Shown: piece by piece, positions 4,640 through 36,659 of the stretch | Position numbering within the stretch: the first letter of the stretch is position 1 | Layout: each line of letters opens with the position of its first letter | Virus record (IMG/VR): IMGVR_UViG_2875703104_000004 | Length of the DNA stretch: 64,000 nucleotides | Direction: 5' to 3' (one strand) | Source: a virus | Taxonomy: Duplodnaviria > Heunggongvirae > Uroviricota > Caudoviricetes | The notes under the pieces: model-generated | Seen by the model: the letters and a program-made list of their open reading frames with translations, nothing else | Told to the model about the DNA's origin: nothing | Databases searched by the model: none | Translations under genes and position numbers: made by a program

Positions 4640-4810
4640 ACCCTTTTAGCTGCGCTGTATCGTCGCCGTATTCCCGCATTAACCATGACCGTAGCCCGAC
4701 GGGGAATTCCTTCTGCGTGAGTGTGCGGGAATAATTAAAAACGATGCACACCGGGTTTTTACCGCGTTAATGATTCGCGGGTTTATCCCGGTGCGATGGT
4801 GGAAGAAACA
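4640..4810. repeat. Conserved non-coding segment shared with 44800-44990 and partly with 25435-25510
   Basis: ~85% identical blocks incl. CGTATTCC(C/T)GCATTAAC and GGTGCGATGGTGGAAGAAAC; flanking genes differ after the shared block. Confidence 0.5.
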
Positions 4811-5360
4811 GGAAGCTGTATTACAGAAAGTGCTACTACTGTATCCCGATGCGATGTATGTAATGTGAGTCAGATAATGGCACAGGATGTGGTGATGTGG
4901 CAGTCTGGAACACAGGATATATTGTCAGAATAAGACCCGTAGGAATAAAAATGAAAAGACGCCTTTTACTACTTTTTCTGTTATCTGTCCTGGCAGTGGG
5001 ATGCTCGCAGCAAAAAGCTGATGAGCCCCGGCAATTAGTGACGGTGTATCCACGATATCCGGAATATGCTGCAGCAAATTATATCAAGGGGCTGGTTGAG
5101 GTTAAGTTCGATATTGGTGCTGATGGGACTGTGACACGGATCGTTTTTCTCCGCTCAGAGCCTCATAATTTGTTTCGTGATGAAGTGGTGAAGGCCATGG
5201 CGAAATGGCGATTTGAAAAGAATCGCCCCTGTCAGGGAGTGAAGAGACAATTTATCTTTACGCCGTCACGTCCTTGATGCTTCCAGGTAGAGAGGGGCTG
5301 GAAGCAGGAGAAAAATGAAAGAGCCAGCGGTTATATTTTTGTCATGGCTGACGAGGAATG
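4733..5360. repeat. ~630-bp block duplicated at 25435-26060 (stf 3' end + lipoprotein gene)
   Basis: Near-identical apart from a T4/T5 homopolymer difference (one N in each copy); copy here ends at the N at 5361. Confidence 0.7.
4951..5277 (+). CDS. Prophage lipoprotein with TonB C-terminal-like domain (109 aa)
   Basis: ATG 4951 with RBS; signal peptide + lipobox LAVGC; motif YPRYPEYAAANYIKGLVEVKFDIGADGTVTRIVFLRSEPHNLFRDEVVKAMAKWRF resembles TonB_C. Confidence 0.6.
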   Translation: MKRRLLLLFLLSVLAVGCSQQKADEPRQLVTVYPRYPEYAAANYIKGLVEVKFDIGADGTVTRIVFLRSEPHNLFRDEVVKAMAKWRFEKNRPCQGVKRQFIFTPSRP

Positions 5361-16336: not shown

Positions 16337-18825
16337 ACCGGTAGGCGATCTGGTCGTTGATTTAAGTCTGGATGCGGCCAGATTTGACGAGCAGATGGCC
16401 AGAGTCAGGCGTCATTTTTCCGGTACGGAAAGTGATGCGAAAAAAACAGCGGCAGTCGTTGAACAGTCGCTGAGCCGACAGGCGCTGGCTGCACAGAAAG
16501 CGGGGATTTCCGTCGGGCAGTATAAAGCCGCCATGCGTATGCTGCCTGCACAGTTCACCGACGTGGCCACGCAGCTTGCAGGCGGGCAAAGCCCGTGGCT
16601 GATCCTGCTGCAACAGGGTGGTCAGGTTAAGGACTCCTTCGGCGGGATGATCCCCATGTTCCGGGGGCTTGCCGGTGCGATCACCCTGCCGATGGTCGGG
16701 GCCACCTCGCTGGCGGTGGCGACCGGTGCGCTGGCGTATGCCTGGTATCAGGGTAACTCAACCCTGTCCGATTTCAACAAAACGCTGGTCCTTTCCGGCA
16801 ATCAGTCGGGTCTGACGGCAGATCGTATGCTGGTCCTGTCCAGAGCCGGGCAGGCGGCAGGGCTGACGTTTAACCAGACCAGCGAGTCACTCAGCGCACT
16901 GGTTAAGGCGGGAGTAAGCGGTGAGGCTCAGATTGCATCCATCAGCCAGAGTGTGGCGCGTTTCTCCTCTGCATCCGGCGTGGAGGTGGACAAGGTCGCT
17001 GAAGCCTTCGGGAAGCTGACCACTGACCCGACGTCGGGGCTGACGGCGATGGCGCGCCAGTTCCATAACGTAACGGCGGAGCAGATTGCGTATGTTGCTC
17101 AGTTGCAGCGTTCCGGCGATGAATCCGGGGCATTGCAGGCGGCGAACGAGGCCGCAACGAAAGGGTTTGATGACCAGACCCGACGCCTGAAAGAGAACAT
17201 GGGCACGCTGGAAACCTGGGCAGACAGGACAGCACGGGCATTCAAATCCATGTGGGATGCGGTGCTGGATATTGGTCGTCCTGATACCGCTCAGGAGATG
17301 CTGATTAAGGCAGAGGCTGCGTTTAAGAAAGCGGACGACATCTGGAATCTGCGCAAGGATGATTATTTTGTTAACGATGAAGCGCGGGCGCGTTACTGGG
17401 ATGATCGTGAAAAGGCCCGTCTTGCGCTTGAAGCCGCCCGAAAGAAGGCTGAACAGCAGAGTCAACAGGACAAAAATGCGCAGCAGCAGAGCGATACCGA
17501 AGCATCACGGCTGAAATATACCGAAGAGGCGCAGAAGGCTTACGAACGGCTGCAGACACCGCTGGAGAAATATACCGCCCGTCAGGAAGAACTGAACAAG
17601 GCACTGAAAGACGGGAAAATCCTGCAGGCAGATTACAACACGCTGATGGCGGCGGCGAAAAAGGATTATGAAGCGACGCTGAAAAAGCCGAAACAGTCCG
17701 GCGTGAAGGTGTCTGCGGGCGATCGTCAGGAAGACAGTGCTCATGCTGCCCTGCTGACGCTTCAGGCTGAACTCCGGACGCTGGAGAAGCATGCCGGAGC
17801 AAATGAGAAAATCAGCCAGCAGCGCCGGGATTTGTGGAAAATCCCTGCTGGCGCATAAAGATGAGACGCTGGAGTACAAACGCCAGCTGGCTGCACTTGG
17901 CGACAAGGTTACGTATCAGGAGCGCCTGAACGCGCTGGCGCAGCAGGCGGATAAATTCGCACAGCAGCAACGGGCAAAACGGGCCGCTATTGATGCGAAA
18001 AGCCGGGGGCTGACTGACCGGCAGGCAGAACGGGAAGCCACGGAACAGCGCCTGAAGGAACAGTATGGCGATAATCCTCTGGCGCTGAATAACGTCATGT
18101 CAGAGCAGAAAAAGACCTGGGCGGCTGAAGACCTGCTTCGCGGGAACTGGATGGCAGGCCTGAAGTCCGGCTGGAGTGAGTGGGAAGAGAGTGCCACGGA
18201 CAGTATGTCGCAGGTTAAAAGTGCTGCCACGCAGACCTTTGATGGTATTGCGCAGAATATGGCGGCGATGCTGACCGGCAGTGAACAGAACTGGCGCAGC
18301 TTCACCCGTTCCGTGCTGTCCATGATGACAGAAATTCTGCTTAAGCAGGCAATGGTGGGGATTGTCGGGAGTATCGGCAGCGCTATTGGCGGGGCTGTTG
18401 GTGGCGGCGCATCCGCGTCAGGCGGTACAGCCATTCAGGCCGCTGCGGCGAAACTCCATTTTGCAACCGGAGGATTTACGGGAACCGGCGGCAAATATGA
18501 GCCAGCGGGGATTGTTCACCGTGGTGAATTTGTCTTCACGAAGGAGGCAACCAGCCGGATTGGCGTGGGAAATCTCTACCGGCTGATGCGCGGCTATGCC
18601 ACCGGCGGTTATGTCGGTGGCACCGGAAGTCCGGCGCAAATGCGGCGTTCAGAGGGTATCAGGTTTGAGCAGAACAACAACGTGGTGATTCAGAACGACG
18701 GTACGAATGGTCTGCCAGGTCCACAGATGATGAAGGCGGTGTATGACATGGCCCGCAAGGGTGCCCGTGATGAAATCCAGGCACAGATGCGCGATGGTGG
18801 TCTGTTCTCCGGAGGTGGACGATGA
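16329..18825 (+). pseudogene. H: Tape measure protein H, frame broken by ~65-bp deletion relative to copy 2
   Basis: ORFs 16329-17858 and 17791-18825 both gpH-like; copy 2 has 65 extra bp at the equivalent of 17838/17839. Confidence 0.8.
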
Positions 18826-19151
18826 AAACCTTCCGCTGGAAAGTGAAACCCGGGATGGATGTGACATCGGCTCCTTCCGTCAGGGAGGTGCGCTTTGGTG
18901 ATGGCTATTCCCAGCGTGCGCCTGCCGGGCTGAACGCTGACCTGAAAACGTACAGCGTGACGCTGTCTGTCTCCCGTGAGGAGGCCACGGCGCTGGAGTC
19001 GTTTCTGGCTGAGCACGGGGGCTGGAAGGCCTTTCTGTGGACGCCGCCTTATGGTTACAGGCAGATAAAGGTGACCTGCGCAAAATGGTCGTCGCGGGTC
19101 AGTATGCTGCGTGTTGAGTTCAGCGCAGAGTTTGAACAGGTGGTGAACTGA
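18822..19151 (+). CDS. M: Tail tip protein M
   Basis: 109 aa; lambda gpM-like. Confidence 0.9.
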   Translation: MKTFRWKVKPGMDVTSAPSVREVRFGDGYSQRAPAGLNADLKTYSVTLSVSREEATALESFLAEHGGWKAFLWTPPYGYRQIKVTCAKWSSRVSMLRVEFSAEFEQVVN

Positions 19152-19849
19152 TGCAGGATATCCGGCAGGAAACATTGAATGAATGCACCCGTGCGGAGCA
19201 GTCGGCCAGCGTGGTGCTCTGGGAAATCGATCTGACAGAGGTCGGTGGAGAACGTTATTTTTTCTGTAATGAGCAGAACGAAAAAGGTGAGCCGGTCACC
19301 TGGCAGGGGCGACAGTATCAGCCGTATCCCATTCAGGGGAGTAGTTTTGAACTGAATGGCAAAGGCACCAGTACGCGCCCCACGCTGACGGTTTCTAACC
19401 TGTACGGTATGGTCACCGGGATGGTGGAAGATCTGCAGAGTCTGGTCGGCGGAACGGTGGTCAGGCGTAAGGTTTACGCCCGTTTTCTGGATGCGGTGAA
19501 CTTCGTCAACGGAAACAGCGACGCCGATCCGGAGCAGGAGGTGATCAGCCGCTGGCGCATCGAGCAGTGCAGCGAACTGAGTGCGGTCAGTGCCTCCTTT
19601 GTACTGTCCACACCGACGGAAACGGATGGTGCCGTTTTTCCGGGGCGCATCATGCTGGCTAATACCTGCACCTGGACCTATCGCGGTGATGAGTGCGGTT
19701 ATCACGGTCCGGCGGTCGCGGATGAATATGATCAGCCGACTTCCGATATCACGAAGGATAAATGCAGCAAATGCCTGAGCGGCTGTAAGTTTCGCAATAA
19801 CGTCGGCAACTTTGGCGGCTTCCTTTCCATTAACAAACTTTCGCAGTAA
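19151..19849 (+). CDS. L: Tail tip protein L
   Basis: 232 aa; lambda gpL-like incl. C-terminal Cys cluster. Confidence 0.9.
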   Translation: MQDIRQETLNECTRAEQSASVVLWEIDLTEVGGERYFFCNEQNEKGEPVTWQGRQYQPYPIQGSSFELNGKGTSTRPTLTVSNLYGMVTGMVEDLQSLVGGTVVRRKVYARFLDAVNFVNGNSDADPEQEVISRWRIEQCSELSAVSASFVLSTPTETDGAVFPGRIMLANTCTWTYRGDECGYHGPAVADEYDQPTSDITKDKCSKCLSGCKFRNNVGNFGGFLSINKLSQ

Positions 19850-19854
19850 ATCCC

Positions 19855-20598
19855 ATGACAGAGACAGAATCAGCGATTCTGGCGCATGCCCGGCGATGTG
19901 CGCCAGCGGAGTCGTGCGGCTTCGTGGTGAGAGCGCCGGAGGGGGAAAGATATTTTCCCTGCGTGAATATCTCCGGTGAGCCGGAGGCGTATTTCCGGAT
20001 GGCTCCGGAGGACTGGCTGCAGGCAGAGATGCAGGGTGAGATTGTGGCGCTGGTCCACAGTCATCCCGGTGGTCTGCCCTGGCTGAGTGAGGCCGACCGG
20101 CGGCTGCAGGTGCAGAGTGATTTGCCGTGGTGGCTGGTCTGCCGGGGGGCGATTCATAAGTTCCGCTGTGTGCCGCATCTCACCGGGCGGCGCTTTGAGC
20201 ACGGGGTGACGGACTGTTACACGCTGTTCCGGGACGCTTACCATCTGGCGGGGATTGAGATGCCGGACTTTCATCGTGAGGATGACTGGTGGCGTAACGG
20301 CCAGAATCTCTATCTTGATAATCTGGAGGCCACAGGGCTGTATCAGGTGCCGTTGTCAGCGGCGCAGCCGGGCGATGTGCTGCTGTGCTGCTTTGGTTCA
20401 TCGGTGCCGAATCATGCCGCTATTTACTGTGGTGACGGCGAGCTGCTGCACCATATTCCTGAACAACTGAGTAAACGAGAGAGGTATACCGACAAATGGC
20501 AGCGACGCACACACTCCCTCTGGCGTCACCGGGCATGGCGCGCATCTGCCTTTACGGGGATTTACAACGATTTGGCCGCCGCATCGACCTTCGTGTGA
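19855..20598 (+). CDS. K: Tail tip assembly protein K (JAB/MPN + NlpC/P60-like)
   Basis: HSHPGG motif and C..H region; lambda gpK-like. Confidence 0.9.
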   Translation: MTETESAILAHARRCAPAESCGFVVRAPEGERYFPCVNISGEPEAYFRMAPEDWLQAEMQGEIVALVHSHPGGLPWLSEADRRLQVQSDLPWWLVCRGAIHKFRCVPHLTGRRFEHGVTDCYTLFRDAYHLAGIEMPDFHREDDWWRNGQNLYLDNLEATGLYQVPLSAAQPGDVLLCCFGSSVPNHAAIYCGDGELLHHIPEQLSKRERYTDKWQRRTHSLWRHRAWRASAFTGIYNDLAAASTFV

Positions 20599-21167
20599 AA
20601 ACGGGGGCTGAAGCCATCCGCGCACTGGCCACACAGCTCCCGGTGTTTCGTCAGAAACTGAGCGACGGCTGGTATCAGGTACGGATTGCCGGGCGGGACG
20701 TCAGCACGTCCGGGTTAACGGCGCAGTTACATGAGACTCTGCCTGATGGCGCTGTGATTCATATTGTTCCCAGAGTCGCCGGGGCCAAGTCAGGTGGCGT
20801 ATTCCAGATTGTCCTGGGGGCTGCCGCCATTGCCGGATCATTCTTTACCGCCGGAGCCACCCTTGCAGCATGGGGGGCAGCCATTGGGGCCGGTGGTATG
20901 ACCGGCATCCTGTTTTCTCTCGGTGCCAGTATGGTGCTCGGTGGTGTGGCGCAGATGCTGGCACCGAAAGCCAGAACTCCCCGTACACAGACAACGGATA
21001 ACGGCAAACAGAACACCTATTTCTCCTCACTGGATAACATGGTTGCCCAGGGCAATGTTCTGCCGGTTCTGTACGGTGAAATGCGCGTGGGGTCACGCGT
21101 GGTTTCTCAGGAGATCAGCACGGCAGACGAAGGGGATGGTGGTCAGGTTGTGGTGATTGGTCGCTGA
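20496..21167 (+). CDS. I: Tail tip assembly protein I
   Basis: 223 aa MAATHTLPLASPGMARICLYGDLQRFGRR...; lambda gpI-like; overlaps K 3' end. Confidence 0.9.
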   Translation: MAATHTLPLASPGMARICLYGDLQRFGRRIDLRVKTGAEAIRALATQLPVFRQKLSDGWYQVRIAGRDVSTSGLTAQLHETLPDGAVIHIVPRVAGAKSGGVFQIVLGAAAIAGSFFTAGATLAAWGAAIGAGGMTGILFSLGASMVLGGVAQMLAPKARTPRTQTTDNGKQNTYFSSLDNMVAQGNVLPVLYGEMRVGSRVVSQEISTADEGDGGQVVVIGR

Positions 21168-21185
21168 TGCAAAATGTTTTATGTG

Positions 21186-21214
21186 AAACCGCCTCCGGGC
21201 GGTTTTATCGTTTA
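21186..21214 (+). other. Stem-loop with T-rich tail in the 60-bp I-J spacer
   Basis: AAACCGCC-tccg-GGCGGTTT then TATCGTTTAT. Confidence 0.35.
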
Positions 21215-21227
21215 TGGAGCATGAGGA

Positions 21228-24200
21228 ATGGGTAAAGGCAGCAGTAAGGGGCATACCCCGCGCGAAGCGAAGGACAACCTGAAATCATCCCAGATGCTGA
21301 GCGTGATAGACGCCATCAGCGAAGGGCCGGTTGAAGGTCCGGTGGATGGATTAAAAAGCGTGCTGCTGAACAGTACGCCGGTGCTGGACAGTGAGGGGAA
21401 TACCAATATATTCGGCGTCACGGTGGTGTTCCGGGCCGGTGAGCAGGAGCAGACACCGCCGGAGGGATTTGAATCCTCCGGCTCCGAGACGGTGCTCGGT
21501 ACAGAAGTGAAATATGACACGCCGATCACCCGGACCATCACGTCGGCAAACATTGACCGTCTGCGTTTTACTTTCGGCGTGCAGGCACTGGTGGAAACCA
21601 CCTCAAAGGGGGACAGGAATCCATCGGAAGTCCGCCTGCTGGTTCAGATTCAACGTAACGGTGGCTGGGTGACGGAAAAAGACATCACCATTAAGGGCAA
21701 AACCACGTCGCAGTATCTGGCCTCGGTGGTGGTGGATAACCTGCCGCCGCGCCCGTTTAATATCCGGATGCGCAGGATGACGCCGGACAGCACCACAGAC
21801 CAGTTGCAGAACAAAACGCTCTGGTCGTCATACACCGAAATCATCGATGTGAAACAGTGCTACCCGAACACGGCACTGGTCGGCGTACAGGTGGACTCGG
21901 AGCAGTTCGGCAGCCAGCAGGTGAGCCGTAATTATCATCTTCGCGGGCGCATTCTGCAGGTGCCGTCGAACTATAACCCGCAGACGCGGCAATACAGCGG
22001 TATCTGGGACGGAACGTTTAAGCCAGCATACAGCAACAACATGGCCTGGTGTCTGTGGGATATGCTGACCCATCCGCGCTACGGCATGGGGAAACGTCTT
22101 GGTGCGGCAGATGTGGATAAATGGGCGCTGTATGTCATCGGCCAGAATTGCGACCAGTCAGTGCCGGACGGCTTTGGCGGCACGGAGCCGCGCATCACCT
22201 GTAATGCGTACCTGACCACACAGCGCAAGGCGTGGGATGTGCTCAGTGATTTTTGCTCGGCGATGCGCTGTATGCCGGTATGGAACGGGCAGACGCTGAC
22301 ATTCGTGCAGGACCGACCGTCGGATAAGGTGTGGACCTATAACCGCAGTAATGTGGTGATGCCGGATGATGGCGCGCCGTTCCGCTACAGCTTCAGCGCC
22401 CTGAAAGACCGCCATAATGCCGTTGAGGTGAACTGGATTGACCCGGATAACGGCTGGGAGACGGCGACAGAGCTTGTGGAGGACACGCAGGCCATTGCCC
22501 GTTACGGTCGTAACGTCACGAAGATGGATGCCTTTGGCTGTACCAGCCGGGGGCAGGCACACCGCGCCGGGCTGTGGCTGATTAAAACGGAGCTGCTGGA
22601 AACGCAGACCGTGGACTTCAGCGTGGGTGCAGAAGGGCTTCGCCATGTACCGGGCGATGTCATTGAAATCTGTGATGATGACTATGCGGGGATCAGCATC
22701 GGCGGGCGCGTGCTGGCGGTGAACAACCAGACGCGGACACTGACGCTCGACCGTGAAATCACGCTGCCATCCTCCGGCACCACGCTGATAAGCCTGGCTG
22801 ACGGACAGGGGAATCCGGTCAGCGTGGAGGTCCAGTCCGTCACCGACGGCGTGAAGGTAAAAGTGAGCCGTGTTCCTGACGGCGTTGCAGAATACAGCGT
22901 GTGGGGGCTGAAGTTGCCAACGTTGCGCCAGCGCCTGTTCCGCTGTGTGAGTATCCGTGAGAACGATGACGGCACGTATGCCATCACTGCCGTGCAGCAT
23001 GTACCGGAAAAAGAGGCCATCGTGGATAACGGGGCGCACTTTGACGGCGACCAGAGCGGCACGGTGAATGGTGTCACGCCGCCAGCGGTGCAGCACCAGC
23101 GGGGAATATCAGGTGCTGGCGCGCTGGGACACGCCGAAGGTGGTGAAGGGGGTGAGCTTTATGCTTCGCCTGACCGTGGCAGCGGATGACGGCAGTGAGC
23201 GGCTGGTCAGCACGGCCCGGACGACGGAAACCACATACCGCTTCAGGCAACTGGCGCTGGGGAACTACAGGCTGACAGTCCGGGCGGTAAATGCGTGGGG
23301 GCAGCAGGGCGATCCGGCATCGGTATCGTTCCGGATTGCCGCACCGGCAGCGCCGTCGCAGATTGAGCTGACACCGGGGTATTTTCAGATAACCGCCACG
23401 CCGCATCTTGCGGTTTATGATCCGACGGTACAGTTTGAGTTCTGGTTCTCGGAAAAGCGGATTGCGGATATCAGGCAGGTTGAAACCACAGCACGCTATC
23501 TTGGCACGGCGCTGTACTGGATAGCCGCCAGTATCAATATCAAACCGGGCCATGATTATTATTTTTACATCCGCAGTGTGAACACCGTTGGCAAATCGGC
23601 ATTTGTGGAGGCTGTTGGCCAGCCGAGTGATGATGCATCCGGCTATCTGAATTTTTTCAAAGGAGAGATAGGGAAAACCCATCTGGCTCAGGAGTTGTGG
23701 ACGCAGATTGATAACGGTCAGCTTGCGCCTGACCTGGCTGAAATCAGGACGTCCATTACGGGTGTCAGCAATGAAATCACGCAGACCGTCAATAAGAAAC
23801 TGGAAGACCAGAGTGCAGCGATCCAGCAGATACAGAAGGTTCAGGTTGATACAAATAATAACCTGAACAGCATGTGGGCTGTGAAGCTGCAGCAGATGCA
23901 GGACGGACGCCTTTATATCGCGGGTATTGGTGCCGGTGTTGAGAATACTCCTGACGGTATGCAGAGTCAGGTGCTGCTGGCGGCGGACAGGATTGCGATG
24001 ATTAATCCTGCGAATGGCAACACAAAGCCGATGTTTGTTGGGCAGGGCGATCAGATATTCATGAACGAAGTGTTCCTGAAATATCTGACGGCTCCCACCA
24101 TTACCAGCGGTGGCAATCCCCCAACGTTTTCACTGACACCTGATGGTCGACTTTCTGCGAAAAATGCGGATATCAGCGGTAACGTGAACGCGAACTCCGG

Positions 24201-24687
24201 GACGCTCAACAACGTCACGATTAATCAGAACTGTCGGATTCTGGGAAAACTGTCAGCTAACCAGATTGAAGGTGATATTGTCAAAACGGTGGGAAAAGCC
24301 TTTCCGAGAAATGGCAGTTATGCCAGCGGTACAATAACGGTCACTGTGTACGATGACCAGGCTTTTGACCGTCAGATAGTAGTCCCCCCCGTTCTGTTTC
24401 GTGGGGGTAAGCATGAAAACTTCAACAGCAACAACCAACAGTCATACTGGTATTCAACCTGTAAGCTGCAGGTACTGAAGAACGGACAGGAAATCTTTCA
24501 GCAACCCGCGACGGATGTCAGCAGGGTATTTTCATCAGTCATTGATATGCCTGCCGGACACGGCCATGTCACCCTGACTTTCAATGTTTCTTCATATGGT
24601 GCTAATAACTGGACGCCAACGACCAGTATCAGCGACCTTCTTGTTGTTGTGATGAAGAAATCTACAGCCGGTATCAGTATCAGTTGA
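21228..24687 (+). pseudogene. J: Host-specificity tail tip protein J, frameshifted near 23070-23190; C-terminal domain diverged from lambda
   Basis: ORF 21228-23189 = gpJ residues 1-~620; homology continues in ORF 23068-24687 in another frame. Confidence 0.85.
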
Positions 24688-24706
24688 ATTTTATAACCCA
24701 GATACG

Positions 24707-24730
24707 GGCGCCAGAAATGGCGCCTTTTTT
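24707..24730 (+). terminator. Intrinsic terminator after J
   Basis: GGCGCC-agaaat-GGCGCC then TTTTTTATTT. Confidence 0.6.
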
Positions 24731-24745
24731 ATTTGTGGAGTGAAT

Positions 24746-25570
24746 ATGGCAGTACAGATTTCAGGCGTGCTGAAAGACGGTGCAGGAAAACCGATACAGA
24801 ACTGCACCATTCAGCTCAAAGCAAAACGTAACAGCACCACGGTTGTGGTGAACACGGTGGCCTCAGAAAATCCGGATGAAGCCGGACGTTACAGCATGGA
24901 TGTCGAGTATGGCCAGTACAGCGTTATCCTGCTGGTTGAAGGTTTTCCGCCTTCACATGCCGGGGCCATCACCGTGTATGAGGATTCTAAGCCGGGGACA
25001 TTGAATGATTTTCTGGGCGCTGCAACAGAAGATGATGTTCGTCCGGAGGCACTGTATCGTTTTGAAAAGATGGTGGAAGAGGTGGCACGCAACGCTGAAG
25101 CCGCCTCTCAGAGCGCAGCGGCAGCAAAGAAATCAGAAACAGCAGCGGCATCGTCCAGGAATGCGGCGAAAACATCAGAGACGAATGCAGGTAACAGCGC
25201 GAAAGCGGCAGCTTCTTCAAAAACAGCCGCACAAAACGCAGCAACAGCGGCAGAACGTTCAGAGACAAATGCCCGTGCGTCAGAAGAAGCCTCCGCAGAC
25301 AGTGAAGAGGCTTCCCGCCGTAATGCAGAGTCAGCCGCTGAAAATGCCGGAGTCGCCACCACAAAAGCGCGGGAGGCCGCAGCAGACGCAACAAAGGCCG
25401 GGCAGAAAAAGGATGAGGCTCTGTCGGCAGCGATAATTAAAAACGATGCACACCGGGTTTTTACCGCGTTAATGATTCGCGGGTTTATCCCGGTGCGATG
25501 GTGGAAGAAACAGGAAGCTGTATTACAGAAAGTGCTACTACTGTATCCCGATGCGATGTATGTAATGTGA
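24746..25570 (+). pseudogene. stf: Side tail fibre stf, N-terminal ~230 residues only
   Basis: MAVQISGVLKDGAGKPIQNCTIQLKAKRNSTTVVVNTV... as lambda Stf N-terminus; 3' end is the bor-cos conserved block. Confidence 0.75.
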
Positions 25571-25652
25571 GTCAGATAATGGCACAGGATGTGGTGATGT
25601 GGCAGTCTGGAACACAGGATATATTGTCAGAATAAGACCCGTAGGAATAAAA

Positions 25653-25979
25653 ATGAAAAGACGCCTTTTACTACTTTTTCTGTTATCTGTCCTGGCAGTG
25701 GGATGCTCGCAGCAAAAAGCTGATGAGCCCCGGCAATTAGTGACGGTGTATCCACGATATCCGGAATATGCTGCAGCAAATTATATCAAGGGGCTGGTTG
25801 AGGTTAAGTTCGATATTGGTGCTGATGGGACTGTGACACGGATCGTTTTTCTCCGCTCAGAGCCTCATAATTTGTTTCGTGATGAAGTGGTGAAGGCCAT
25901 GGCGAAATGGCGATTTGAAAAGAATCGCCCCTGTCAGGGAGTGAAGAGACAATTTATCTTTACGCCGTCACGTCCTTGA
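25653..25979 (+). CDS. Second copy of TonB C-terminal-like lipoprotein
   Basis: Protein identical to 4951-5277. Confidence 0.6.
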   Translation: MKRRLLLLFLLSVLAVGCSQQKADEPRQLVTVYPRYPEYAAANYIKGLVEVKFDIGADGTVTRIVFLRSEPHNLFRDEVVKAMAKWRFEKNRPCQGVKRQFIFTPSRP

Positions 25980-26101
25980 TGCTTCCAGGTAGAGAGGGGC
26001 TGGANGCAGGAGAAAAATGAAAGAGCCAGCGGTTATATTTTTGTCATGGCTGACGAGGAATGATGGAAGAAGGCGTTGTATGCCACACAACGCCTCACTG
26101 T

Positions 26102-26280
26102 TCATTTCTTCTTTTTCTCTGGTGGAACCCGATGAATAAGAGTTGCACTGGTTTCCGATGAGATGGCGATATACTCGGGCAAAGTATGCTGGCAGTTTTC
26201 CAACTGGTCAAAAATACCTGCTCTCGTCTGTTGCAATGCCTGCAGCATGCGGCGGCAATGCGCCTTGCTTTTACTAACCA
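26102..26280 (-). CDS. Hypothetical small basic protein (59 aa)
   Basis: Minus ATG 26280 with GAGGAAGGAAAG RBS; MVSKSKAHCRRMLQALQQTRAGIFDQLENCQHTLPEYIAISSETSATLIHRVPPEKKKK. Confidence 0.35.
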
Positions 26281-26342
26281 TCTTTCCTTCCTCTATCAGT
26301 CGCTGCGTGAACTCATCATGNAATACCAGGTAAATGCGGATG

Positions 26343-26592
26343 TTATCGGTTTTGGCTACGCAGCATAGTACAAAACGGACAGGTGCATCCCGGGACGGGG
26401 GAGGCGTCACATGTCCCTGTGATGGTTGTTCCGGGTAATGNACTGTGTGGGGCATAAAAATGTCCGATAATTTTACTTTCTACCGCAGTTAGTTGATTCG
26501 TTGGTCCTGGTAGCACATTGGGCGAGGATTTAAATGCCAGGCAACTGAAGGATGATGTNGCAAGGGAGATAGCGAGAATATTTCTGATTTTC
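26343..26592 (-). CDS. Hypothetical small secreted Cys-rich peptide (83-aa precursor)
   Basis: Minus ATG 26592; signal peptide MKIRNILAISLxTSSFSCLA; mature part has CDASPVPGCTCPFC; two N inside. Confidence 0.4.
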
Positions 26593-26607
26593 ATTTGATG
26601 ATGCCTC

Positions 26608-26909
26608 TGTGTGAAATGACGGTAAACGACGCACTTGTGCCGGCACATAATAGCAAGCACCATAATAGATCAGATTCGATTCTTGCTGTAAGTGATAATT
26701 ATTCTCGTTTTCGGGTCCTTTCCGTCGATCCAACAGGTTACGGGGCGGCGACCTCGCGGTGTGAAATGACGGTAAACGACGCACTTGTGCCGGCACATAA
26801 TAGCAAGCACCATAATAGATCAGATTCGATTCTTGCTGTAAGTGATAATTATTCTCGTTTTCGGGTCCTTTCCGTCGATCCAACAGGTTACGGGGCGGCG
26901 ACCTCGCGG
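26608..26909 (+). repeat. Tandem duplication (2 x ~151 bp) of the cosQ-cosN region
   Basis: Unit TGTGAAATGACGGTAAACGACGCACTTGTGCCGGCACATAAT...GGGGCGGCGACCTCGCGG occurs twice. Confidence 0.85.
26893..26904 (+). other. cosN cohesive-end sequence of copy 2 (duplicate at 26743-26754)
   Basis: GTTACG/GGGCGGCGACCT/CGCGGGTTTTCGCTATTTATGAAAATTTTT as lambda cos. Confidence 0.75.
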
Positions 26910-27073
26910 GTTTTCGCTATTTATGAAAATTTTTAGGGAAAAATCAGATCCGTTTTTCTTCTTTTTAACTGATTGATTATCAATAGAATTTTAAAAATAT
27001 AAAAGGATCTAACAAAGGCTGTTTTTGTTAGAAAACGCCATTTTCAGATCCTTTCTGGTTCCCGGGGGAGTGT

Positions 27074-27622
27074 ATGAACGTCAATAAGAAAAAACTGGCC
27101 GATATTTTTGGCGTTGATGTCAGGACCATCACCGCCTGGCAGAGTCAGGGGTTACCACTAGTTTCTGGTGGAGGGAAAGGGACTGAATCAGTTTTTGATA
27201 CAACTGCTGCCATTCAGTGGTATGCGCAGAGGGAAGCTGATATTAAAAACGAAAAACTCCGTAAAGAGATCGAGGATTTGAGGGCTGCCAGCGAATCAGA
27301 CCTTCAGCCCGGCACCATTGATTACGAACGTTACCGACTGACGAAGGCACAGGCCGATGCACAGGAGCTGAAAAATGCTCGTGAGGAAGGCCTTGTCCTC
27401 GAGACGGAGTTATTTACCTACATCTTTCAGCGAGTGGCACAGAATATATCAGGGATCCTTGTCCGTGTCCCTCAGACACTGCAGCGTAAATACCCTGATA
27501 TATCACCCGTACATCTTGATGCTGTGAAAACTGAAATCGCGAAAGCATCCGATGTGGCTTCTGAAGCCGGTGAGAATGTGCGCAGGTGGATTGATGATTT
27601 CAGACGAACTGAGGGCGGCTAA
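27074..27622 (+). CDS. nu1: Terminase small subunit Nu1 (copy 2)
   Basis: 182 aa, ~85% identical to copy 1 Nu1. Confidence 0.9.
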
Positions 27623-29522
27623 TTCTGCAGGAGCGATAGCAACCGGCCTCCTTGCGCTAAAAATTCCTGTCCCTCTGACGACAGTTCAGTGGGCAGATCG
27701 ACATTATTACCTTCCGAAAGAGTCATCTTACACCCCGGGGCGGTGGGAAACACTGCCGTTTCAGGTTGCCATCATGAACAGCATGGGGAATGACCGGATC
27801 CGCACTGTTAATCTGATTAAATCTGCCCGTGTTGGTTATACAAAGATGTTGCTGGGAGTGGAGGCTTATTTTATTGAGCATAAATCACGCAACAGCCTTC
27901 TTTTCCAGCCCACGGATTCTGCTGCTGAAGATTTTATGAAATCTCATGTGGAACCCACGATCAGGGATGTGCCGGTTTTACTCGATCTTGCACCGTGGTT
28001 TGGGCGTAAACATCGTGATAATACCCTCACGCTGAAACGTTTTTCATCGGGCGTGGGCTTCTGGTGCCTGGGCGGGGCTGCCGCTAAAAACTACCGTGAA
28101 AAATCCGTGGACGTGGTCTGCTATGACGAACTTTCCTCGTTCGAACCGGATGTCGAAAAAGAGGGTTCGCCAACCCTGCTTGGGGATAAACGTATTGAGG
28201 GCTCGGTATGGCCAAAATCCATTCGCGGCTCGACGCCTAAAATAAAAGGCTCCTGCCAGATCGAAAAAGCGGCCAACGAGTCGGCGCATTTCATGCGTTT
28301 TTATGTGCCCTGCCCACACTGTGGGGAGGAGCAGTATCTGAAATTTGGCGATGAATCCACGCCTTTTGGCCTTAAATGGGAGAAAGACAGCCCCGAAAGC
28401 GTTTTCTACCTCTGTGAACATCATGGCTGCGTGATCCATCAGTCTGAGCTTGACCAGAGCAACGGGCGGTGGATCTGTGAAAACACGGGGATGTGGACCC
28501 GTGACGGTCTGACGTTTTTCAGCGCCGCGGATAATGAAATTCCGCCGCCGCGCTCCATCACGTTCCATATCTGGACGGCGTACAGTCCGTTCACCACCTG
28601 GGTACAGATAGTCTATGACTGGCTGGATGCACTGAAAGATCCCAACGGCCTGAAAACCTTTGTGAACACCACGCTGGGCGAGACCTGGGAAGAGGCCGTG
28701 GGCGAAAAACTCGATCACCAGGTACTGATGGATAAGGTCGTGCATTACACGGCGGCGGTGCCAGCCCGGGTGGTTTATCTGACGGCGGGCATTGACTCGC
28801 AGCGAAACCGTTTTGAGATGTATGTCTGGGGATGGGCACCGGGAGAGGAAGCTTTTCTGGTGGATAAAATCATCATTATGGGCCGTCCCGATGAGGAAGA
28901 GACGCTGTTACGTGTGGATGCGGCGATCAACAAAAAATACTGCCATGCAGACGGAACCGAAATGACCATTTCCCGTGTCTGCTGGGACACCGGGGGGATC
29001 GATGGTGAAATTGTCTATCAGAGGTCAAAAAAACACGGTGTTTTCCGGGTGCTGCCGGTAAAAGGTGCATCTGTTTATGGCAAGCCGGTGATCACCATGC
29101 CAAAAACCCGCAATCAGCGGGGCGTGTATCTGTGCGAAGTGGGGACGGACACCGCAAAAGAAATTCTCTATGCCCGTATGAAAGCCGATCCCACGCCTGC
29201 GGATGAAGCCACGTCGTATGCCATCCGTTTTCCTGATGATCCGGAGATTTTTTCGCAGACAGAGGCGCAGCAACTGGTGGCGGAAGAGCTTGTGGAGAAG
29301 TGGGAAAAAGGAAAGATGCGTCTGCTGTGGGATAACAAAAAGCGGCGTAACGAAGCGCTGGACTGCCTGGTGTATGCCTATGCGGCATTACGTGTGTCCG
29401 TGCAACGCTGGCAGCTTGATCTGGCTGTACTGGCAAAATCCCGGGAAGAAGAGACGACCCGGCCAACCCTTAAAGAACTGGCAGCGAAGCTGTCCGGAGG
29501 AGTGAATGGTTACAGTCGCTGA
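27594..29522 (+). CDS. A: Terminase large subunit A (copy 2)
   Basis: Collinear with copy 1 A; ATG 27594. Confidence 0.9.
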
Positions 29523-29712
29523 ACTACAGGCGCTGCGTCAGGCGCGCCTTGATTTATTAACCGGTAAACGGGTGGTGTCTGTCCAGAAAGATGGTCGCAG
29601 AATTGAATATACGGCGGCCTCTCTGGATGAGCTTAACCGTGCGATCAATGATGCTGAGTTGGTACTGGGGACAACCCGCCGTCGCCGTCGTCCGCTGGGA
29701 GTGAGGTTATGA
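29506..29712 (+). CDS. W: Head-tail joining protein W (copy 2)
   Basis: 68 aa, 2 substitutions vs copy 1. Confidence 0.85.
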   Translation: MVTVAELQALRQARLDLLTGKRVVSVQKDGRRIEYTAASLDELNRAINDAELVLGTTRRRRRPLGVRL

Positions 29713-31417
29713 AACGAACGCCTGTCCTGATTGATGTGAACGGCGTTCCGCTTCGGGAGAGCCTCAGCTACAACGGGGGCGGCGCAGGATTTGGCGGGCA
29801 AATGGCGGAGTGGTTGCCACCGGCGCAGAGTGCCGATGCGGCCCTGCTGCCCGCGTTGCGTCTGGGGAATGCCCGGGCAGATGATCTGGTGCGCAATAAC
29901 GGGATAGCGGCCAATGCGGTGGCCCTGCATAAGGATCACATTGTCGGGCATATGTTTCTTATCAGCTACCGCCCGAACTGGCGCTGGCTGGGGATGCGGG
30001 AGACCGCGACAAAAAGTTTTGTCGATGAGGTGGAGGCGGCCTGGTCAGAATACGCAGAAGGGATGTTTGGTGAGATCGACGTGGAAGGGAAACGCACGTT
30101 TACGGAATTTATCCGTGAAGGTGTGGGCGTTCATGCGTTTAACGGCGAAATCTTTGTGCAGCCGGTCTGGGATACGGAGAGCACGCAACTGTTTCGTACG
30201 CGTTTTAAAGCCGTGAGTCCGAAACGGGTGGACACGCCAGGACACGGTATCGGGAACCGTTTTCTGCGGGCCGGTGTGGAGGTTGATCGATATGGCCGTG
30301 CCGTTGCGTACCATATCTGTGAGGATGATTTTCCTCGCTCCGGGAGTGGACGATGGGAACGGATCCCGCGTGAACTTCCCACCGGGCGTCCGGCCATGCT
30401 GCATATTTTCGAGCCGGTGGAGGACGGGCAGACCCGTGGGGCCAACCAGTTTTACAGCGTCATGGAACGGCTGAAGATGCTCGATTCCCTGCAGGCAACA
30501 CAGCTTCAGTCGGCCATTGTCAAGGCGATGTATGCAGCGACAATTGAAAGTGAACTGGATACCGAAAAGGCCTTTGAATATATCGCCGGTGCGCCGCAGG
30601 GGCAGAAGGATAATCCGCTTATTAATATTCTGGAGAAGTTCTCCAGCTGGTATGACACGAATAACGTGACGCTGGGCGGTGTCAAAATTCCGCACCTTTT
30701 CCCTGGTGATGATCTGAAACTACAGACAGCGCAGGATTCAGACAATGGATTTTCTGCGCTTGAACAGGCGCTGCTGCGGTATATCGCCGCCGGTCTTGGC
30801 GTTTCCTACGAACAGTTGTCCCGTGATTACTCGAAGGTCAGTTACTCAAGTGCCCGCGCCTCCGCCAATGAGTCGTGGAACAGGCGCTGCTGCGGTATAT
30901 CGCCGCCGGTCTTGGCGTTTCCTACGAACAGTTGTCCCGTGATTACTCGAAGGTCAGTTACTCAAGTGCCCGCGCCTCCGCCAATGAGTCGTGGCGCTAT
31001 TTTATGGGGCGGCGAAAATTTATTGCGTCCCGGCTGGCCACGCAGATGTTTTCCTGCTGGCTGGAAGAGGCACTTCTGCGGGGGATTATCCGTCCGCCAC
31101 GGGCACGTTTTGATTTTTATCAGGCGCGTTCAGCCTGGTCACGGGCTGAGTGGATTGGTGCCGGAAGAATGGCCATTGACGGGCTCAAGGAGGTTCAGGA
31201 ATCGGTGATGCGTATTGATTCCGGACTGAGCACGTATGAGAAAGAGCTGGCGCTGATGGGCGAGGATTATCAGGACATTTTCCGCCAGCAGGTCAGGGAA
31301 TCTGCAGAGCGGGAAAAAGCCGGACTCTCACGTCCGGTGTGGATAGCGCAGGCGTATCAGCAGCAGATAGCGGAGAGTCGCAGGCCGGAAGAGGAGACAA
31401 CACCACGTGAGACGTAA
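29709..31417 (+). pseudogene. B: Portal protein B (copy 2), same 116-bp tandem duplication
   Basis: Frame breaks at duplication 30763-30994. Confidence 0.8.
30763..30994 (+). repeat. 116-bp tandem duplication in portal gene (copy 2)
   Basis: Same unit as 9361-9592, twice. Confidence 0.9.
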
Positions 31418-33460
31418 TCTTTCACACATTATTGCAGCAGCATTCAATGAACCGCTGCTTCTGGAGCCCGCCTATGCGCGGGTTTTCTTTTGCGCGCTCG
31501 GGCGCGAGATGGGGGCAGCAAGTCTTTCGGTACCGCAACAGCAGGTACAGCTTGATGCTCCCGGGATGCTGGCTGAAACGGACGAGTACATGGCCGGAGG
31601 TAAACGACCGGCCCGTGTTTACCGGGTGGTGAACGGTATTGCGGTACTGCCGGTGACCGGCACGCTGGTGCACCGGCTGGGGGGGATGCGGCCATTTTCC
31701 GGAATGACTGGCTATGACGGCATTGTCGCCTGTCTTCAGCAGGCAATGGCAGATAGCCAGGTGCGGGGCATACTGCTGGACATTGACAGTCCGGGCGGGC
31801 AGGCCGCCGGCGCGTTTGACTGCGTTGACATGATTTACCGCCTCCGGCAGCAGAAGCCGGTCTGGGCACTGTGCAATGACACGGCCTGTTCTGCAGCCAT
31901 GCTGCTGGCGTCGGCCTGCTCCCGACGGCTGGTTACCCAGACATCCCGTATCGGCTCCATTGGCGTGATGATGAGCCATGTCAGCTATGCCGGTCATCTG
32001 GCGCAGGCCGGTGTGGATATCACGCTGATTTACTCAGGGGCGCACAAGGTGGATGGCAATCAGNGGTGCACCGGCTGGGTGGTATGCGGCCATTTTCCGG
32101 AATGACAGGCTATGACGGCATTGTCGCCTGTCTTCAGCAGGCAATGGCGGATAGCCAGGTGCGGGGCGTACTGCTGGACATTGACAGTCCGGGCGGGCAG
32201 GCCGCCGGCGCGTTTGACTGCGCTGACATGATTTACCGCCTCCGTCAGCAGAAGCCGGTCTGGGCACTGTGCAATGACACGGCCTGTTCTGCAGCCATGC
32301 TGCTGGCGTCGGCCTGCTCCCGACGGCTGGTTACCCAGACATCCCGTATCGGCTCCATTGGCGTGATGATGAGCCATGTCAGCTATGCCGGTCATCTGGC
32401 GCAGGCCGGTGTGGATATCACGCTGATTTANNCNGGGGCGCACAAGGTGGATGGCAATCAGTTTGAAGCGTTGCCGGCAGAGGTTCGCCAGGACATGCAG
32501 CAGCGGATTGATGCGGCGCGCCGGATGTTTGCCGAAAAAGTGGCGATGTATACCGGTCTGTCTGTTGATGCCGTCACGGGAACAGAGGCTGCCGTTTTTG
32601 AAGGTCAGTCCGGCATTGAGGCCGGGCTGGCGGATGAATTAATCAATGCGTCGGATGCCATCAGTGTGATGGCCACGGCGCTGAACAGTAATGTCAGAGG
32701 AGGCACTATGCCGCAATTAACTGCAACGGAAGCCGCCGCTGCCGTTTTTGAAGGTCAGTCCGGCATTGAGGCCGGGCTGGCGGATGAATTAATCAATGCG
32801 TCGGATGCCATCAGTGTGATGGCCACGGCGCTGAACAGTAATGTCAGAGGAGGCACTATGCCGCAATTAACTGCAACGGAAGCCGCCGTGCAGGAGAACC
32901 AGCGAGTGATGGGGATCCTGACATGCCAGGAAGCGAAAGGACGTGAACAGCTTGCCACGATGCTGGCAGGGCAACAGGGCATGAGCGTTGAACAGGCCCG
33001 GGCGATTCTGGCCGCGGCGGCACCGCAGCAGCCGGTGGCATCCGCACAGAGTGAAGCCGATCGCATTATGGCGTGTGAAGAAGCGAACGGTCGTGAACAA
33101 CTGGCAGCAACGCTGGCGGCGATGCCGGAGAGGACGGTGGAAAAAGCCCGCCCGATCCTGGCTGCTTCACCGCAGGCGAATGCCGGGCCCTCACTTCGTG
33201 ATCAGATCATGGCACTGGATGAGGCAAAAGGGGCTGAGGCGCAGGCTGAACAGCTGGCTGCCTGCCCGGGAATGACTGTGGAGAGCGCCCGGGCTGTGCT
33301 GGCTGCGGGATCAGGTAAGGCAGAACCGGTCTCTGCATCCACAACCGCCCTGTTTGAACATTTCATGGCGAACCATTCACCGGCTGCGGTCCAGGGGGGC
33401 GTGTCACAGGCGTCAGAAGACGGTGATGCGGACGTGAAAATGCTCATGGCCATGCCATGA
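31407..33460 (+). pseudogene. C: Capsid protease/scaffold C (copy 2), interrupted by N-flanked ~397-bp duplication and an in-frame 150-bp tandem duplication
   Basis: 31666-32062 repeated at 32065-32460 (N at 32063; second copy carries copy-1 SNPs); 32588-32737 repeated at 32738-32887. Confidence 0.8.
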
Positions 33461-33496
33461 AGTCAGTGCTGAACATCAATACGAGGTTTTAACAAT

Positions 33497-33844
33497 ATGG
33501 TGACGAAAACCATCACTGAACAGCGTGCGGAAGTACGTATTTTTGCCGGTAATGATCCGGCTCACACCGCCACAGGCAGCAGCGGGATTTCCTCGGCAAC
33601 ACCGGCACTGACACCCCTGATGCTGGATGGGGCCACCGGGAAACTGGTGGTCTGGGACGGACAGAAAGCCGGTAGTGCGGTTGGCATACTGGTACTGCCG
33701 CTTGAAGGCACAGAGGCGGTGCTGACGTATTACAAGTCGGGGACCTTTGCGACGGAGGCAATCCGCTGGCCTGAAAGTGTGGATGAACACAAAAAGGCCA
33801 ACGCCTTTACCGGCAGTGCCCTGAGTCACGCGGCGCTGCCGTAA
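33497..33844 (+). CDS. D: Head decoration protein D (copy 2)
   Basis: 115 aa. Confidence 0.9.
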   Translation: MVTKTITEQRAEVRIFAGNDPAHTATGSSGISSATPALTPLMLDGATGKLVVWDGQKAGSAVGILVLPLEGTEAVLTYYKSGTFATEAIRWPESVDEHKKANAFTGSALSHAALP

Positions 33845-33901
33845 CACGTTATCAGGCCACCGCGTTGGCCTGACTGATTTCTTAATGAAAGGAACTGATT
33901 T

Positions 33902-34930: not shown

Positions 34931-34939
34931 TCCGTGAGC

Positions 34940-34967: not shown

Positions 34968-34981
34968 CACAGGAGGCTGAG

Positions 34982-35711: not shown

Positions 35712-35726
35712 ACGCAGGGTGAAATT

Positions 35727-36652: not shown

Positions 36653-36659
36653 GGACGAT

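What the first reader, a model, noticed from the sequence alone, without database searches (positions are those of the whole stretch)
24746..26910. Truncated stf joined directly to bor-cos sequence, then cos and a second head module
After J, stf keeps ~230 N-terminal codons and runs into the conserved block that normally lies between bor and cos, followed by moron genes, a duplicated cos and Nu1 of copy 2. No attachment site, integrase or early region intervenes. This is either a real tandem defective-prophage array made by deletion between homologous late regions, or an assembly chimera.
Basis: partly seen in the sequence, partly recalled or inferred. Interest (0 to 1): 0.45.

Follow-up and report, generated by a model that had tools for sequence, protein, structure and literature searches.

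The report
Assembly misjoin between two E. coli prophages
The truncated tail-fibre gene running into a second phage head module is not a real tandem prophage array: two contigs were butted together at the edge of a repeat that a short-read assembly had collapsed, so it is an artefact.

Summary
In detail: 229 codons of stf (24746-25432) run straight into the iss/bor-to-cos block (TonB_C gene), then 558 nt of small ORFs, a 150-nt tandem duplication carrying cosN twice, then Nu1 of a second late region.

It is an assembly artefact. Segment 25433-26759 is, to the base at both ends, the near-identical repeat shared by two natural prophages: the Nissle 1917 sit-prophage at icd (copy 1) and the MCJCHV-1 prophage beside potB (copy 2). 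Those prophages differ inside it at four SNPs, which are exactly the window's four N's (26005, 26321, 26441, 26559). So it is a collapsed-repeat consensus contig.

- Copy 1 has one N at 5361 where 558 nt of this segment belong.
- The "duplicated cos" is an unmerged 150-nt contig overlap, absent from natural references; at least five more such overlaps occur in the window.
- The stf/TonB join shares 1 nt. It is in none of 5,426 complete E. coli genomes, nor in the phage, IMG/VR, GTDB or JGI collections.
- In long-read Nissle genomes stf continues to 686 codons, then sitDCBA and icd'.

Verdict: not a real feature; low interest.

The parts
4731..5360 (.). First copy of the iss-to-cos 'TonB block', at the end of the contig carrying lysis module 1. 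A single N at 5361 follows, standing in for 558 missing nt.
   Evidence: 99.84% identical to 25433-26062. Window 2254-5360 = Nissle L007 5336-8442, and 5362-9476 = L007 9001-13115, so L007 8443-9000 is replaced by one N.
21228..24687 (+). Tail tip gene J of copy 1. It reads as two ORFs because 23 nt are missing at 23096 compared with the intact Nissle gene.
   Evidence: ORFs 21228-23189 and 23068-24687. A 23-nt gap against L007 26685-26707. J is an intact 3483 nt in Nissle.
24746..25432 (+). First 229 codons of the side tail fibre gene stf; the last sequence of the copy-1 contig.
   Evidence: PF08400 at E=1.5e-69. Identical to codons 1-229 of the 686-codon Nissle gene. Window 17836-25433 = L007 21423-29044 with 0 mismatches.
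25432..25433 (.). Blunt, non-natural contig abutment between stf codon 229 and the first base of the collapsed repeat.
   Evidence: Only 1 nt ('a') is shared by the two contexts. A 300-nt probe across it is joined in 0 of 5,426 complete genomes. The 34-mer across it has 0 hits in IMG/VR, GTDB genomes and JGI metagenomes.
25433..26759 (.). Collapsed-repeat consensus contig (1,327 nt): the repeat shared by the Nissle-type and MCJCHV-1-type prophages. N's at 26005, 26321, 26441 and 26559.
   Evidence: Equals L007 7813-9139 and L005rc 8584-9910. The two natural prophages differ at the base just before and just after it, and inside it only at L007 8385/8701/8821/8939, which map to the four N's.
25653..25979 (+). 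TonB C-terminal-domain gene with a lipoprotein-like N-terminus; an ordinary accessory gene between iss/bor and cos in these prophages and in phage 21.
   Evidence: PF03544 at E=7e-13. Annotated 'TonB family protein' WP_000830178.1 in Nissle, MCJCHV-1 and CEA601S. Also present in phage 21 (H31).
26063..26620 (.). 558 nt of small uncharacterised ORFs. They are present here but replaced by the N at 5361 in copy 1.
   Evidence: L007 8443-9000. No Pfam hit for ORFs 26102-26455(-), 26343-26663(-) or 26186-26368(+).
26610..26909 (.). Two tandem 150-nt units (26610-26759, 26760-26909), each with cosN (26743-26754, 26893-26904). This is an unmerged overlap between the repeat contig and the copy-2 contig.
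   Evidence: 100% self-identity at offset 150. MCJCHV-1 matches 25432-26759 and then restarts 150 nt back for 26759-30878 at 100%. Natural genomes hold 1,619 nt where the window has 1,769.
27074..27622 (+). Nu1 (terminase small subunit) of late region 2.
   Evidence: PF07471 at E=8e-86. Lies within the 4,120-nt stretch 100% identical to MCJCHV-1.

Best explanation
The window is a scaffold or pseudomolecule built from short-read contigs of a sample holding at least three related lambdoid prophages. Copy 1 is a Nissle-1917-type sit-prophage at icd. Copy 2 is an MCJCHV-1-type prophage beside potB. Copy 3 is an HK97-like prophage of the 23AR0151 type.

The stf/TonB-block junction at 25432/25433 is a blunt abutment of two contigs.
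- The left contig simply stops in the alanine-rich part of stf.
- The right contig (25433-26759) is the collapsed consensus of a 1,327-nt repeat shared by copies 1 and 2. It was placed once, in front of copy 2's Nu1.
- That placement left a one-N gap at 5361 in copy 1.

The 'duplicated cos' arises because the next contig reaches 150 nt, about one read length, back into the repeat, and the overlap was not merged.

In the real chromosome stf continues to 686 codons, followed by sitDCBA and icd'. The TonB block of copy 2 is preceded by that prophage's own lysis genes.

Shown: segment identities, repeat boundaries, N's at SNP positions, and absence of the junction elsewhere. Inferred: the read length, which assembler or scaffolder was used, and why the left contig ends where it does.
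For: 1. Between joins the window is 99.99-100% identical to natural prophages in complete genomes: 5362-9476 and 9476-17839 to Nissle, 26759-30878 and 32738-39990 to MCJCHV-1, 42631-59576 to 23AR0151. Apart from a few base substitutions near 2432-2457 and one unexplained 23-nt loss inside J (23096), the differences lie at joins or at the N positions.
2. The exact repeat between the Nissle and MCJCHV-1 prophages starts at ATAATTAAAAACG (window 25433) and ends at GACCTCGCGG (window 26759). The bases immediately outside differ between the two prophages. Both ends of the segment therefore match the repeat boundaries to the base.
3. The only four differences between the two prophages inside the repeat (A/C, G/T, T/C, C/T) fall exactly on the four N's. 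The chance of four N's landing on those four of 1,327 positions is about 8e-12 (my calculation, 1/C(1327,4)).
4. The same rule holds for the N's at 32431/32432/32434, 39716 and 42213/42217/42251.
5. Copy 1 has N at 5361 in place of the 558 nt found at 26063-26620.
6. True neighbours in this scaffold overlap and are duplicated: 116-117 nt at 9476 and 30878; 150 nt at 26759, 32738, 40012 and 42631; 397 nt at 32064. The references lack these duplications. The stf/TonB join has no overlap at all, so nothing in the sequence supports continuity there.
7. Across the junction: 0 of 5,426 complete genomes, 0 of 50,697 phage records covering at least 80%, 0 exact hits in three contig collections, and the fusion protein is not on record.
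8. Natural stf is continuous across the break point in 1,087 complete genomes. It reads 686 codons in Nissle, followed by sitDCBA and icd'.
9. Strain UPEC-455U/190220 carries both prophage types. Their order there is copy 2, then potBA...icd, then integrase, early genes and copy 1, which is the reverse of the window and has host genes and int in between.
Against: No reads are available, so depth and read-pair support at 25432/25433 were not examined directly. Why the left contig ends at exactly L007 29044 is unexplained: one search found no common mosaic boundary there. The tool that produced the joins is unknown, including the odd constant of 129 nt of overlap plus 21 N's = 150. A blunt join with no N differs from most other joins in the window, although a second one occurs at 41963/41964.
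Confidence: 0.94

Rival explanations
1. The junction is real. In the source strain an illegitimate deletion joined stf codon 229 of one prophage to the iss-cos spacer of a downstream prophage, giving a tandem array of late regions with no int, att or early genes between them.
For: Real deletions inside these prophages exist. Six complete genomes join cos to stf codon 15, in the opposite order. UPEC-455U/190220 fuses essD to J. Deletions and compound prophages are documented in O157 by long reads (PMC10925052). The two prophage types can lie about 12 kb apart in the same orientation.
Against: - The right endpoint would have to coincide by chance, to the base, with the start of the inter-prophage repeat.
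- The segment to its right is demonstrably a two-copy consensus, with N's at the SNPs, so it is not assigned to any one place.
- In a genome carrying both prophage types the order is copy 2 then copy 1, so a simple deletion could not produce copy 1 followed by copy 2.
- The junction is absent from every collection searched.
- A second, equally unnatural blunt join at 41963/41964 would need a second independent event.
Confidence: 0.03
2. Still an artefact, but the collapsed repeat and its N's come from a mixture of strains (a metagenome or a contaminated culture) and not from two paralogous prophages in a single genome.
For: The three late regions have their best matches in three different sets of complete genomes: Nissle/ST73-type for copy 1, MCJCHV-1-type for copy 2, 23AR0151-type for copy 3. 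No single genome listed was top for all three.
Against: Single genomes do carry both the copy-2-type prophage and a sit-prophage, so a mixture is not required. The tools list only the top rows, so a genome holding all three may exist unseen. Either way the verdict on the junction is unchanged.
Confidence: 0.25
3. The cos duplication is biological, for example a joined-ends or concatemer signature of packaged phage DNA.
For: Each 150-nt unit contains a complete cosN.
Against: - The unit ends 5 nt past the cohesive end, exactly at the end of the inter-prophage repeat, not at the nick sites.
- Joined cohesive ends would give a single cosN, not a 150-nt repeat.
- Identical period-150 duplications occur at 32738, 40012 and 42631, inside the head protease and tape-measure genes and at the holin gene.
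- Natural genomes, 100% identical on both sides, lack the duplication.
Confidence: 0.01

Closest known systems
E. coli Nissle 1917 lambdoid prophage at icd carrying sitABCD (NZ_CP022686.1 4792371-4830413, long-read assembly)
   Same: Window 2254-25433 (lysis genes, iss, TonB block, cos, Nu1 through J, first 229 codons of stf) is 99.9-100% identical within each contig segment.
   Different: In Nissle there is no N-gap at the TonB block, no 116-nt duplication in the portal gene, and no 65-nt or 23-nt loss in the tape-measure gene and J. Its stf continues to 686 codons, followed by two small ORFs, sitDCBA and icd'.
Lambdoid prophage beside potB in E. coli MCJCHV-1 (NZ_CP030111.1, about 2.836-2.870 Mb)
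   Same: Window 25432-41558 matches at 99.7-100% in segments, including 4,120 nt and 1,547 nt at 100%.
   Different: In MCJCHV-1 the TonB block is preceded by that prophage's own holin, lysozyme and Rz genes, not by stf. It has one cos, not two. The late region continues through K, I, J, lom and stf to potB.
Phage 21 right end and cos (OL657228.1)
   Same: Window 25433-26892 is 99.7% identical to the last 1,310 nt of the phage 21 record, which carries the TonB C-terminal domain gene and an annotated cosQ. The record ends at the base before GGGCGGCGACCT (H31).
   Different: Phage 21 is a virion genome with a single cos. The window shows the prophage-permuted form with an artefactual second copy.
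Real cos-to-stf deletion derivative of the sit-prophage (CEA601S NZ_CP166713.1, 19AR1724 NZ_CP195804.1 and four other complete genomes)
   Same: The same two sequence blocks (TonB block with cos, and the stf N-terminus) lie next to each other at 99.5% identity.
   Different: The order is reversed: iss, TonB, cos, then 33 nt of lambda-type cosB sequence, then stf from codon 15 onward into the full fibre. This deletes Nu1 through J inside one prophage. It does not join two late regions.
Compound prophages and deletions between homologous tail regions in E. coli O157:H7 (PMC10925052)
   Same: Real events that remove or rearrange large parts of neighbouring lambdoid prophages. The paper also states that short reads cannot handle homologous prophage content.
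   Different: Those events are flanked by kilobases of homology and were seen in long reads. Here the junction has 1 nt of homology and is seen only in this N-containing assembly.

Membership tests
Collapsed-repeat contig and scaffold misjoin (short-read assembly artefact) | Segment boundaries coincide with the boundaries of a repeat present at least twice in the sample | tested here: met
   25433 and 26759 are the first and last bases of the repeat shared by the Nissle-type and MCJCHV-1-type prophages. The flanking bases differ between the two.
Collapsed-repeat contig and scaffold misjoin (short-read assembly artefact) | Ambiguous consensus bases at the positions that distinguish the repeat copies | tested here: met
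   4 of 4 N's in the segment fall on the only 4 SNPs. The same holds for 7 further N's elsewhere in the window.
Collapsed-repeat contig and scaffold misjoin (short-read assembly artefact) | The repeat is missing (a gap) at its other genomic location | tested here: met
   N at 5361 replaces L007 8443-9000, which equals window 26063-26620.
Collapsed-repeat contig and scaffold misjoin (short-read assembly artefact) | Unmerged contig overlaps or other join scars nearby that are absent from finished genomes | tested here: met
   Tandem duplications of 116-117, 150, 157, 397 and 584 nt, single N's and 21-N runs at joins. The references run through these points with no duplication.
Collapsed-repeat contig and scaffold misjoin (short-read assembly artefact) | About twofold read depth over the collapsed segment and no reads spanning the false join | not testable with these tools
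   No reads are available for the window.
Real tandem or compound defective prophage array | Junction reproducible in independent, preferably long-read, assemblies | tested here: not met
   0 of 5,426 complete genomes. 0 phage records. 0 hits in IMG/VR, GTDB and JGI contigs. The fusion protein is not on record.
Real tandem or compound defective prophage array | If made by recombination between homologous late regions: homology at the exchange point | tested here: not met
   stf and the iss-TonB spacer share 1 nt at the junction.
Real tandem or compound defective prophage array | Parental prophages adjacent in the order required for a simple deletion | tested here: not met
   In a genome carrying both types the order is copy 2, host genes, int, copy 1, not copy 1 then copy 2. 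This rests on one genome only, so the test is weak.
Lambda-type cos / Nu1 packaging site | 12-nt cohesive-end sequence GGGCGGCGACCT upstream of a Nu1 gene, matching an experimentally defined phage end | tested here: met
   cosN lies at 26893-26904. The phage 21 record ends at window 26892 and annotates cosQ. Nu1 matches PF07471 at E=8e-86.
Lambda-type cos / Nu1 packaging site | A single cos per prophage; the second copy would need natural support | tested here: not met
   Natural genomes 100% identical on both sides hold a single copy: 1,619 nt against 1,769 nt in the window.
Lambda Stf-type side tail fibre | N-terminal domain PF08400 plus a C-terminal receptor-binding part | tested here: inconclusive
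   The N-terminal domain is present. The C-terminal 457 codons are absent from the window, but the identical natural gene has them. The truncation belongs to the assembly and was not shown for the strain.

The most novel reading that the evidence does not exclude
The stf(229)::TonB-block junction is a genuine illegitimate deletion in the source strain whose endpoint happens to fall on the repeat boundary. It would then mark a true head-to-tail array of late regions with two cos sites and no lysogeny module.
Probability: 0.03. Interest if true: 0.2.

Novelty: not a real feature. Interest (0 to 1): 0.04.

Why it matters
It matters only as quality control. This window chains three prophage late regions through collapsed repeats. 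Any structural oddity in it (truncated genes, duplicated cos, frameshifted H and J, triple L/K segments) should therefore not be read as biology. The test used here carries over to other scaffolds: check whether N's fall on paralogue SNPs and whether segment ends fall on repeat boundaries, using finished genomes as the reference. The underlying elements are ordinary, well-sampled lambdoid prophages of B2-type E. coli.

Tried and rejected
1. Six complete genomes seemed to cover 83% of the 2.6-kb query. On inspection the blocks are in the opposite order, a real cos-to-stf deletion, so they do not support the junction.
2. The oversized 2014 Nissle assembly NZ_CP007799.1 (5.44 Mb) was the top hit for copy 1, so I considered it as the source of the window. 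It has its own duplicated lysis and terS fragments, but there stf continues normally into sitDCBA, so it is not the source.
3. I tested whether the stf break point (L007 29044) is a common mosaic boundary that would explain a contig end. It is not: 1,087 genomes are continuous across it, and partial hits break at other positions. The alanine-rich, repetitive coding sequence there may explain the contig end, but this is inference.
4. Exact look-up of the 274-aa fusion protein found nothing on record.
5. Exact 34-mer scans of IMG/VR, GTDB genomes and JGI metagenomes found nothing, so the source record was not identified.
6. A 24-kb query across the junction gave '98% covered' places. These were cyclic wrap-arounds onto a single late region, so they carry no information about the junction.

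Full report
**What is there**

- After J (21228-24687), a gene starts at ATG 24746. It matches the prophage tail fibre N-terminal domain (PF08400, E=1.5e-69).
- After 229 codons, at 25433, the sequence switches to a block 99.8% identical to window 4731-5360. In copy 1 that block lies between iss/bor and cos. It carries a TonB_C gene (25653-25979, PF03544).
- Next come 558 nt of small ORFs with no family hit (26063-26620).
- Then comes a perfect 150-nt tandem duplication (26610-26759 = 26760-26909). Each unit contains the lambda cohesive-end sequence GGGCGGCGACCT.
- Then comes Nu1 (27074-27622, PF07471).
- No int, att or early genes intervene.

**Wider structure**

A self-comparison shows that the window chains three late regions:
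- lysis 1, cos, Nu1 through J, truncated stf;
- TonB block, cos, Nu1 through K/L (to about 41960);
- holin/lysis 3, terminase, and on through J (HK97-like heads).

The window holds 58 N's. Single N's and two 21-N runs sit at joins flanked by tandem duplications:
- 397 nt at 32064;
- period 150 at 40012 and 42631;
- 157 nt at 59574;
- 584 nt, three times, at 60308 and 60842.

Duplications without N's occur at 9476 and 30878 (116-117 nt) and at 26759 and 32738 (150 nt).

**Is the junction seen anywhere else?**

No.
- A 300-nt probe centred on 25432/25433 is never found joined in 5,426 complete E. coli genomes, although 2,212 of them hold one half or the other.
- No phage record spans it. All hits to the 2.6-kb query break at query position 834.
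- The 34-mer across the junction has no exact match in IMG/VR, GTDB genome contigs or JGI metagenome contigs.
- The 274-aa fusion protein is not on record.
- Six complete genomes that seemed to cover 83% of the query hold the blocks in the opposite order. They read iss, TonB, cos, 33 nt of lambda-type cosB, then stf from codon 15. This is a genuine deletion of Nu1 through J within one prophage.

**The natural counterparts**

- Copy 1 is the sit-carrying prophage at icd of E. coli Nissle 1917.
- Copy 2 is the prophage beside potB of MCJCHV-1 and relatives.
- Copy 3 is an HK97-like prophage of 23AR0151.

Segment by segment the window is 99.99-100% identical to these: 5362-9476 at 100%, 9476-17839 with one mismatch, 26759-30878 at 100% over 4,120 nt, 40012-41558 at 100%, and 42631-59576 with two mismatches. 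Apart from four substitutions at 2432-2457 and a 23-nt loss inside J (23096), departures lie at the joins or at the N positions. The references run through each join with no duplication.

**The decisive result**

Exact-match mapping between the Nissle prophage and the MCJCHV-1 prophage shows that they share a near-identical stretch, L007 7813-9139 = L005rc 8584-9910.
- The stretch is interrupted by only four SNPs, at L007 8385, 8701, 8821 and 8939. In window coordinates these are 26005, 26321, 26441 and 26559, exactly the four N's in the finding's region.
- The base before ATAATTAAAAACG (window 25433) differs between the two prophages (a versus g). So does the base after GACCTCGCGG (window 26759; t versus g).
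- Segment 25433-26759 is therefore, to the base at both ends, the repeat common to two prophages. It is written as a consensus with N wherever they disagree.
- The chance of four N's landing on those four of 1,327 positions is about 8e-12 (my calculation).
- The same rule explains the N's at 32431/32432/32434, 39716 and 42213/42217/42251.
- The repeat was placed once, in front of copy 2's Nu1. At its other location, in copy 1, a single N (5361) replaces the 558 nt found at 26063-26620.

**The 'duplicated cos'**

The copy-2 contig begins 150 nt inside the repeat (L005rc 9760), and the overlap with the repeat contig was not merged.
- The duplication unit ends at the repeat boundary, 5 nt past the cohesive end, not at the nick sites.
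- Identical period-150 scars lie inside the head protease and tape-measure genes and at the holin gene.
- The duplication therefore says nothing about packaging.

**The junction itself**

- True neighbours in this scaffold overlap by 116-397 nt. The stf/TonB join shares 1 nt, so the sequence offers no sign of continuity there.
- A second blunt, unnatural join (tail K-type sequence into the DUF826/holin region) lies at 41963/41964.
- In long-read Nissle genomes stf is a continuous 686-codon ORF. Its first 229 residues equal the window's. It is followed by two small ORFs, sitDCBA and the icd remnant.
- The natural sequence is continuous across the break point in 1,087 complete genomes.
- In UPEC-455U/190220, which has both prophage types, the order is copy 2, potBA through icd, integrase, early genes, then the sit-prophage. 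This is the reverse of the window, with host genes and int in between.

**Interpretation**

The finding is a scaffold misjoin at a collapsed repeat. It is not a tandem defective-prophage array.
- Real deletions in these prophages do occur (PMC10925052). That paper also notes that short reads cannot resolve homologous prophage content.
- A real event here would need an endpoint that coincides by chance with the repeat boundary. It would also need a parental order opposite to the one seen, and a second independent event at 41963.
- I put the real-junction reading at about 3%.
- Whether the two repeat copies came from one genome or from a strain mixture is open. It does not change the verdict.

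**Unexplained**

- Why the copy-1 contig stops at exactly L007 29044: there is no common mosaic boundary there. The region encodes an alanine-rich repetitive stretch.
- Which software produced the joins, including the constant of 129 nt of overlap plus 21 N's = 150.
- What the source record is.

Noticed in passing
L001 13320-13420 (NZ_CP166713.1); also L002 and four other complete genomes: A real defective sit-prophage. Lambda-type cos (to about 62 nt past cosN) is joined to stf codon 15, deleting Nu1 through J. The order is opposite to the window's junction, and it is conserved at 99.5% in six long-read genomes.
   Followed up: partly
window 17836-17839 and 23096: Compared with the Nissle long-read genome, the copy-1 tape-measure gene lacks about 64-65 nt at a contig join and J lacks 23 nt. 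Both losses split the ORFs. They are probably further assembly errors and not pseudogenes.
   Followed up: partly
window 32065-32739: A 675-nt piece of copy-1-type sequence (= 10265-10939) sits inside the copy-2 chain. It is flanked by an N (32064) plus a 397-nt imperfect overlap on one side and a 151-nt overlap on the other, with N's at the paralogue differences. This is another collapsed-repeat contig.
   Followed up: yes
window 59575-61475: Three stacked, overlapping versions (period 584) of the L/K tail-gene region, separated by single N's at 60308 and 60842. One version matches 23AR0151 at 100%; the others are about 97-98% variants. These look like alternative alleles laid end to end.
   Followed up: partly
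window 41559-41972 and 41963/41964: A second blunt, non-natural join. A tail L/K-type fragment (97.7% to MCJCHV-1, 99.3% to window 59789-60202) runs straight into the DUF826/holin region that precedes late region 3.
   Followed up: partly
window 9360-9592 and 30762-30994: A 116-117-nt tandem duplication in the portal gene at homologous positions of copies 1 and 2. It lies within a 183-nt exact match between the two prophages, is repeated at the contig joins, and is absent from the Nissle and MCJCHV-1 genomes.
   Followed up: yes
window 2254-2266: The Q-to-lysis interval lacks the 1.28 kb that holds the porin (ompC/nmpC-like) gene in the Nissle prophage (L007 4056-5335). Upstream sequence is only 93-96% identical to the references. 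This may be another join or a natural variant.
   Followed up: no
window 51848-52333: Three diverged tandem copies of a 162-nt (54-codon) unit (65-80% identity) inside ORF 51693-52754 (353 aa), in the head-gene part of late region 3.
   Followed up: no
L006 (NZ_CP007799.1 1340000-1352000): The 2014 'complete' Nissle 1917 record (5.44 Mb, against about 5.05 Mb in later assemblies) contains serial duplicates of the essD-rrrD-rzpD-iss-TonB-terS segment in this same prophage. That is a similar repeat-related assembly problem in a RefSeq record.
   Followed up: no
L009 40866-44671 (NZ_CP049839.1): In UPEC-455U/190220 the sit-prophage has essD directly followed by J: the rest of the lysis cassette, cos, and the head and tail-shaft genes are missing. 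This is another natural deletion variant of the prophage.
   Followed up: no
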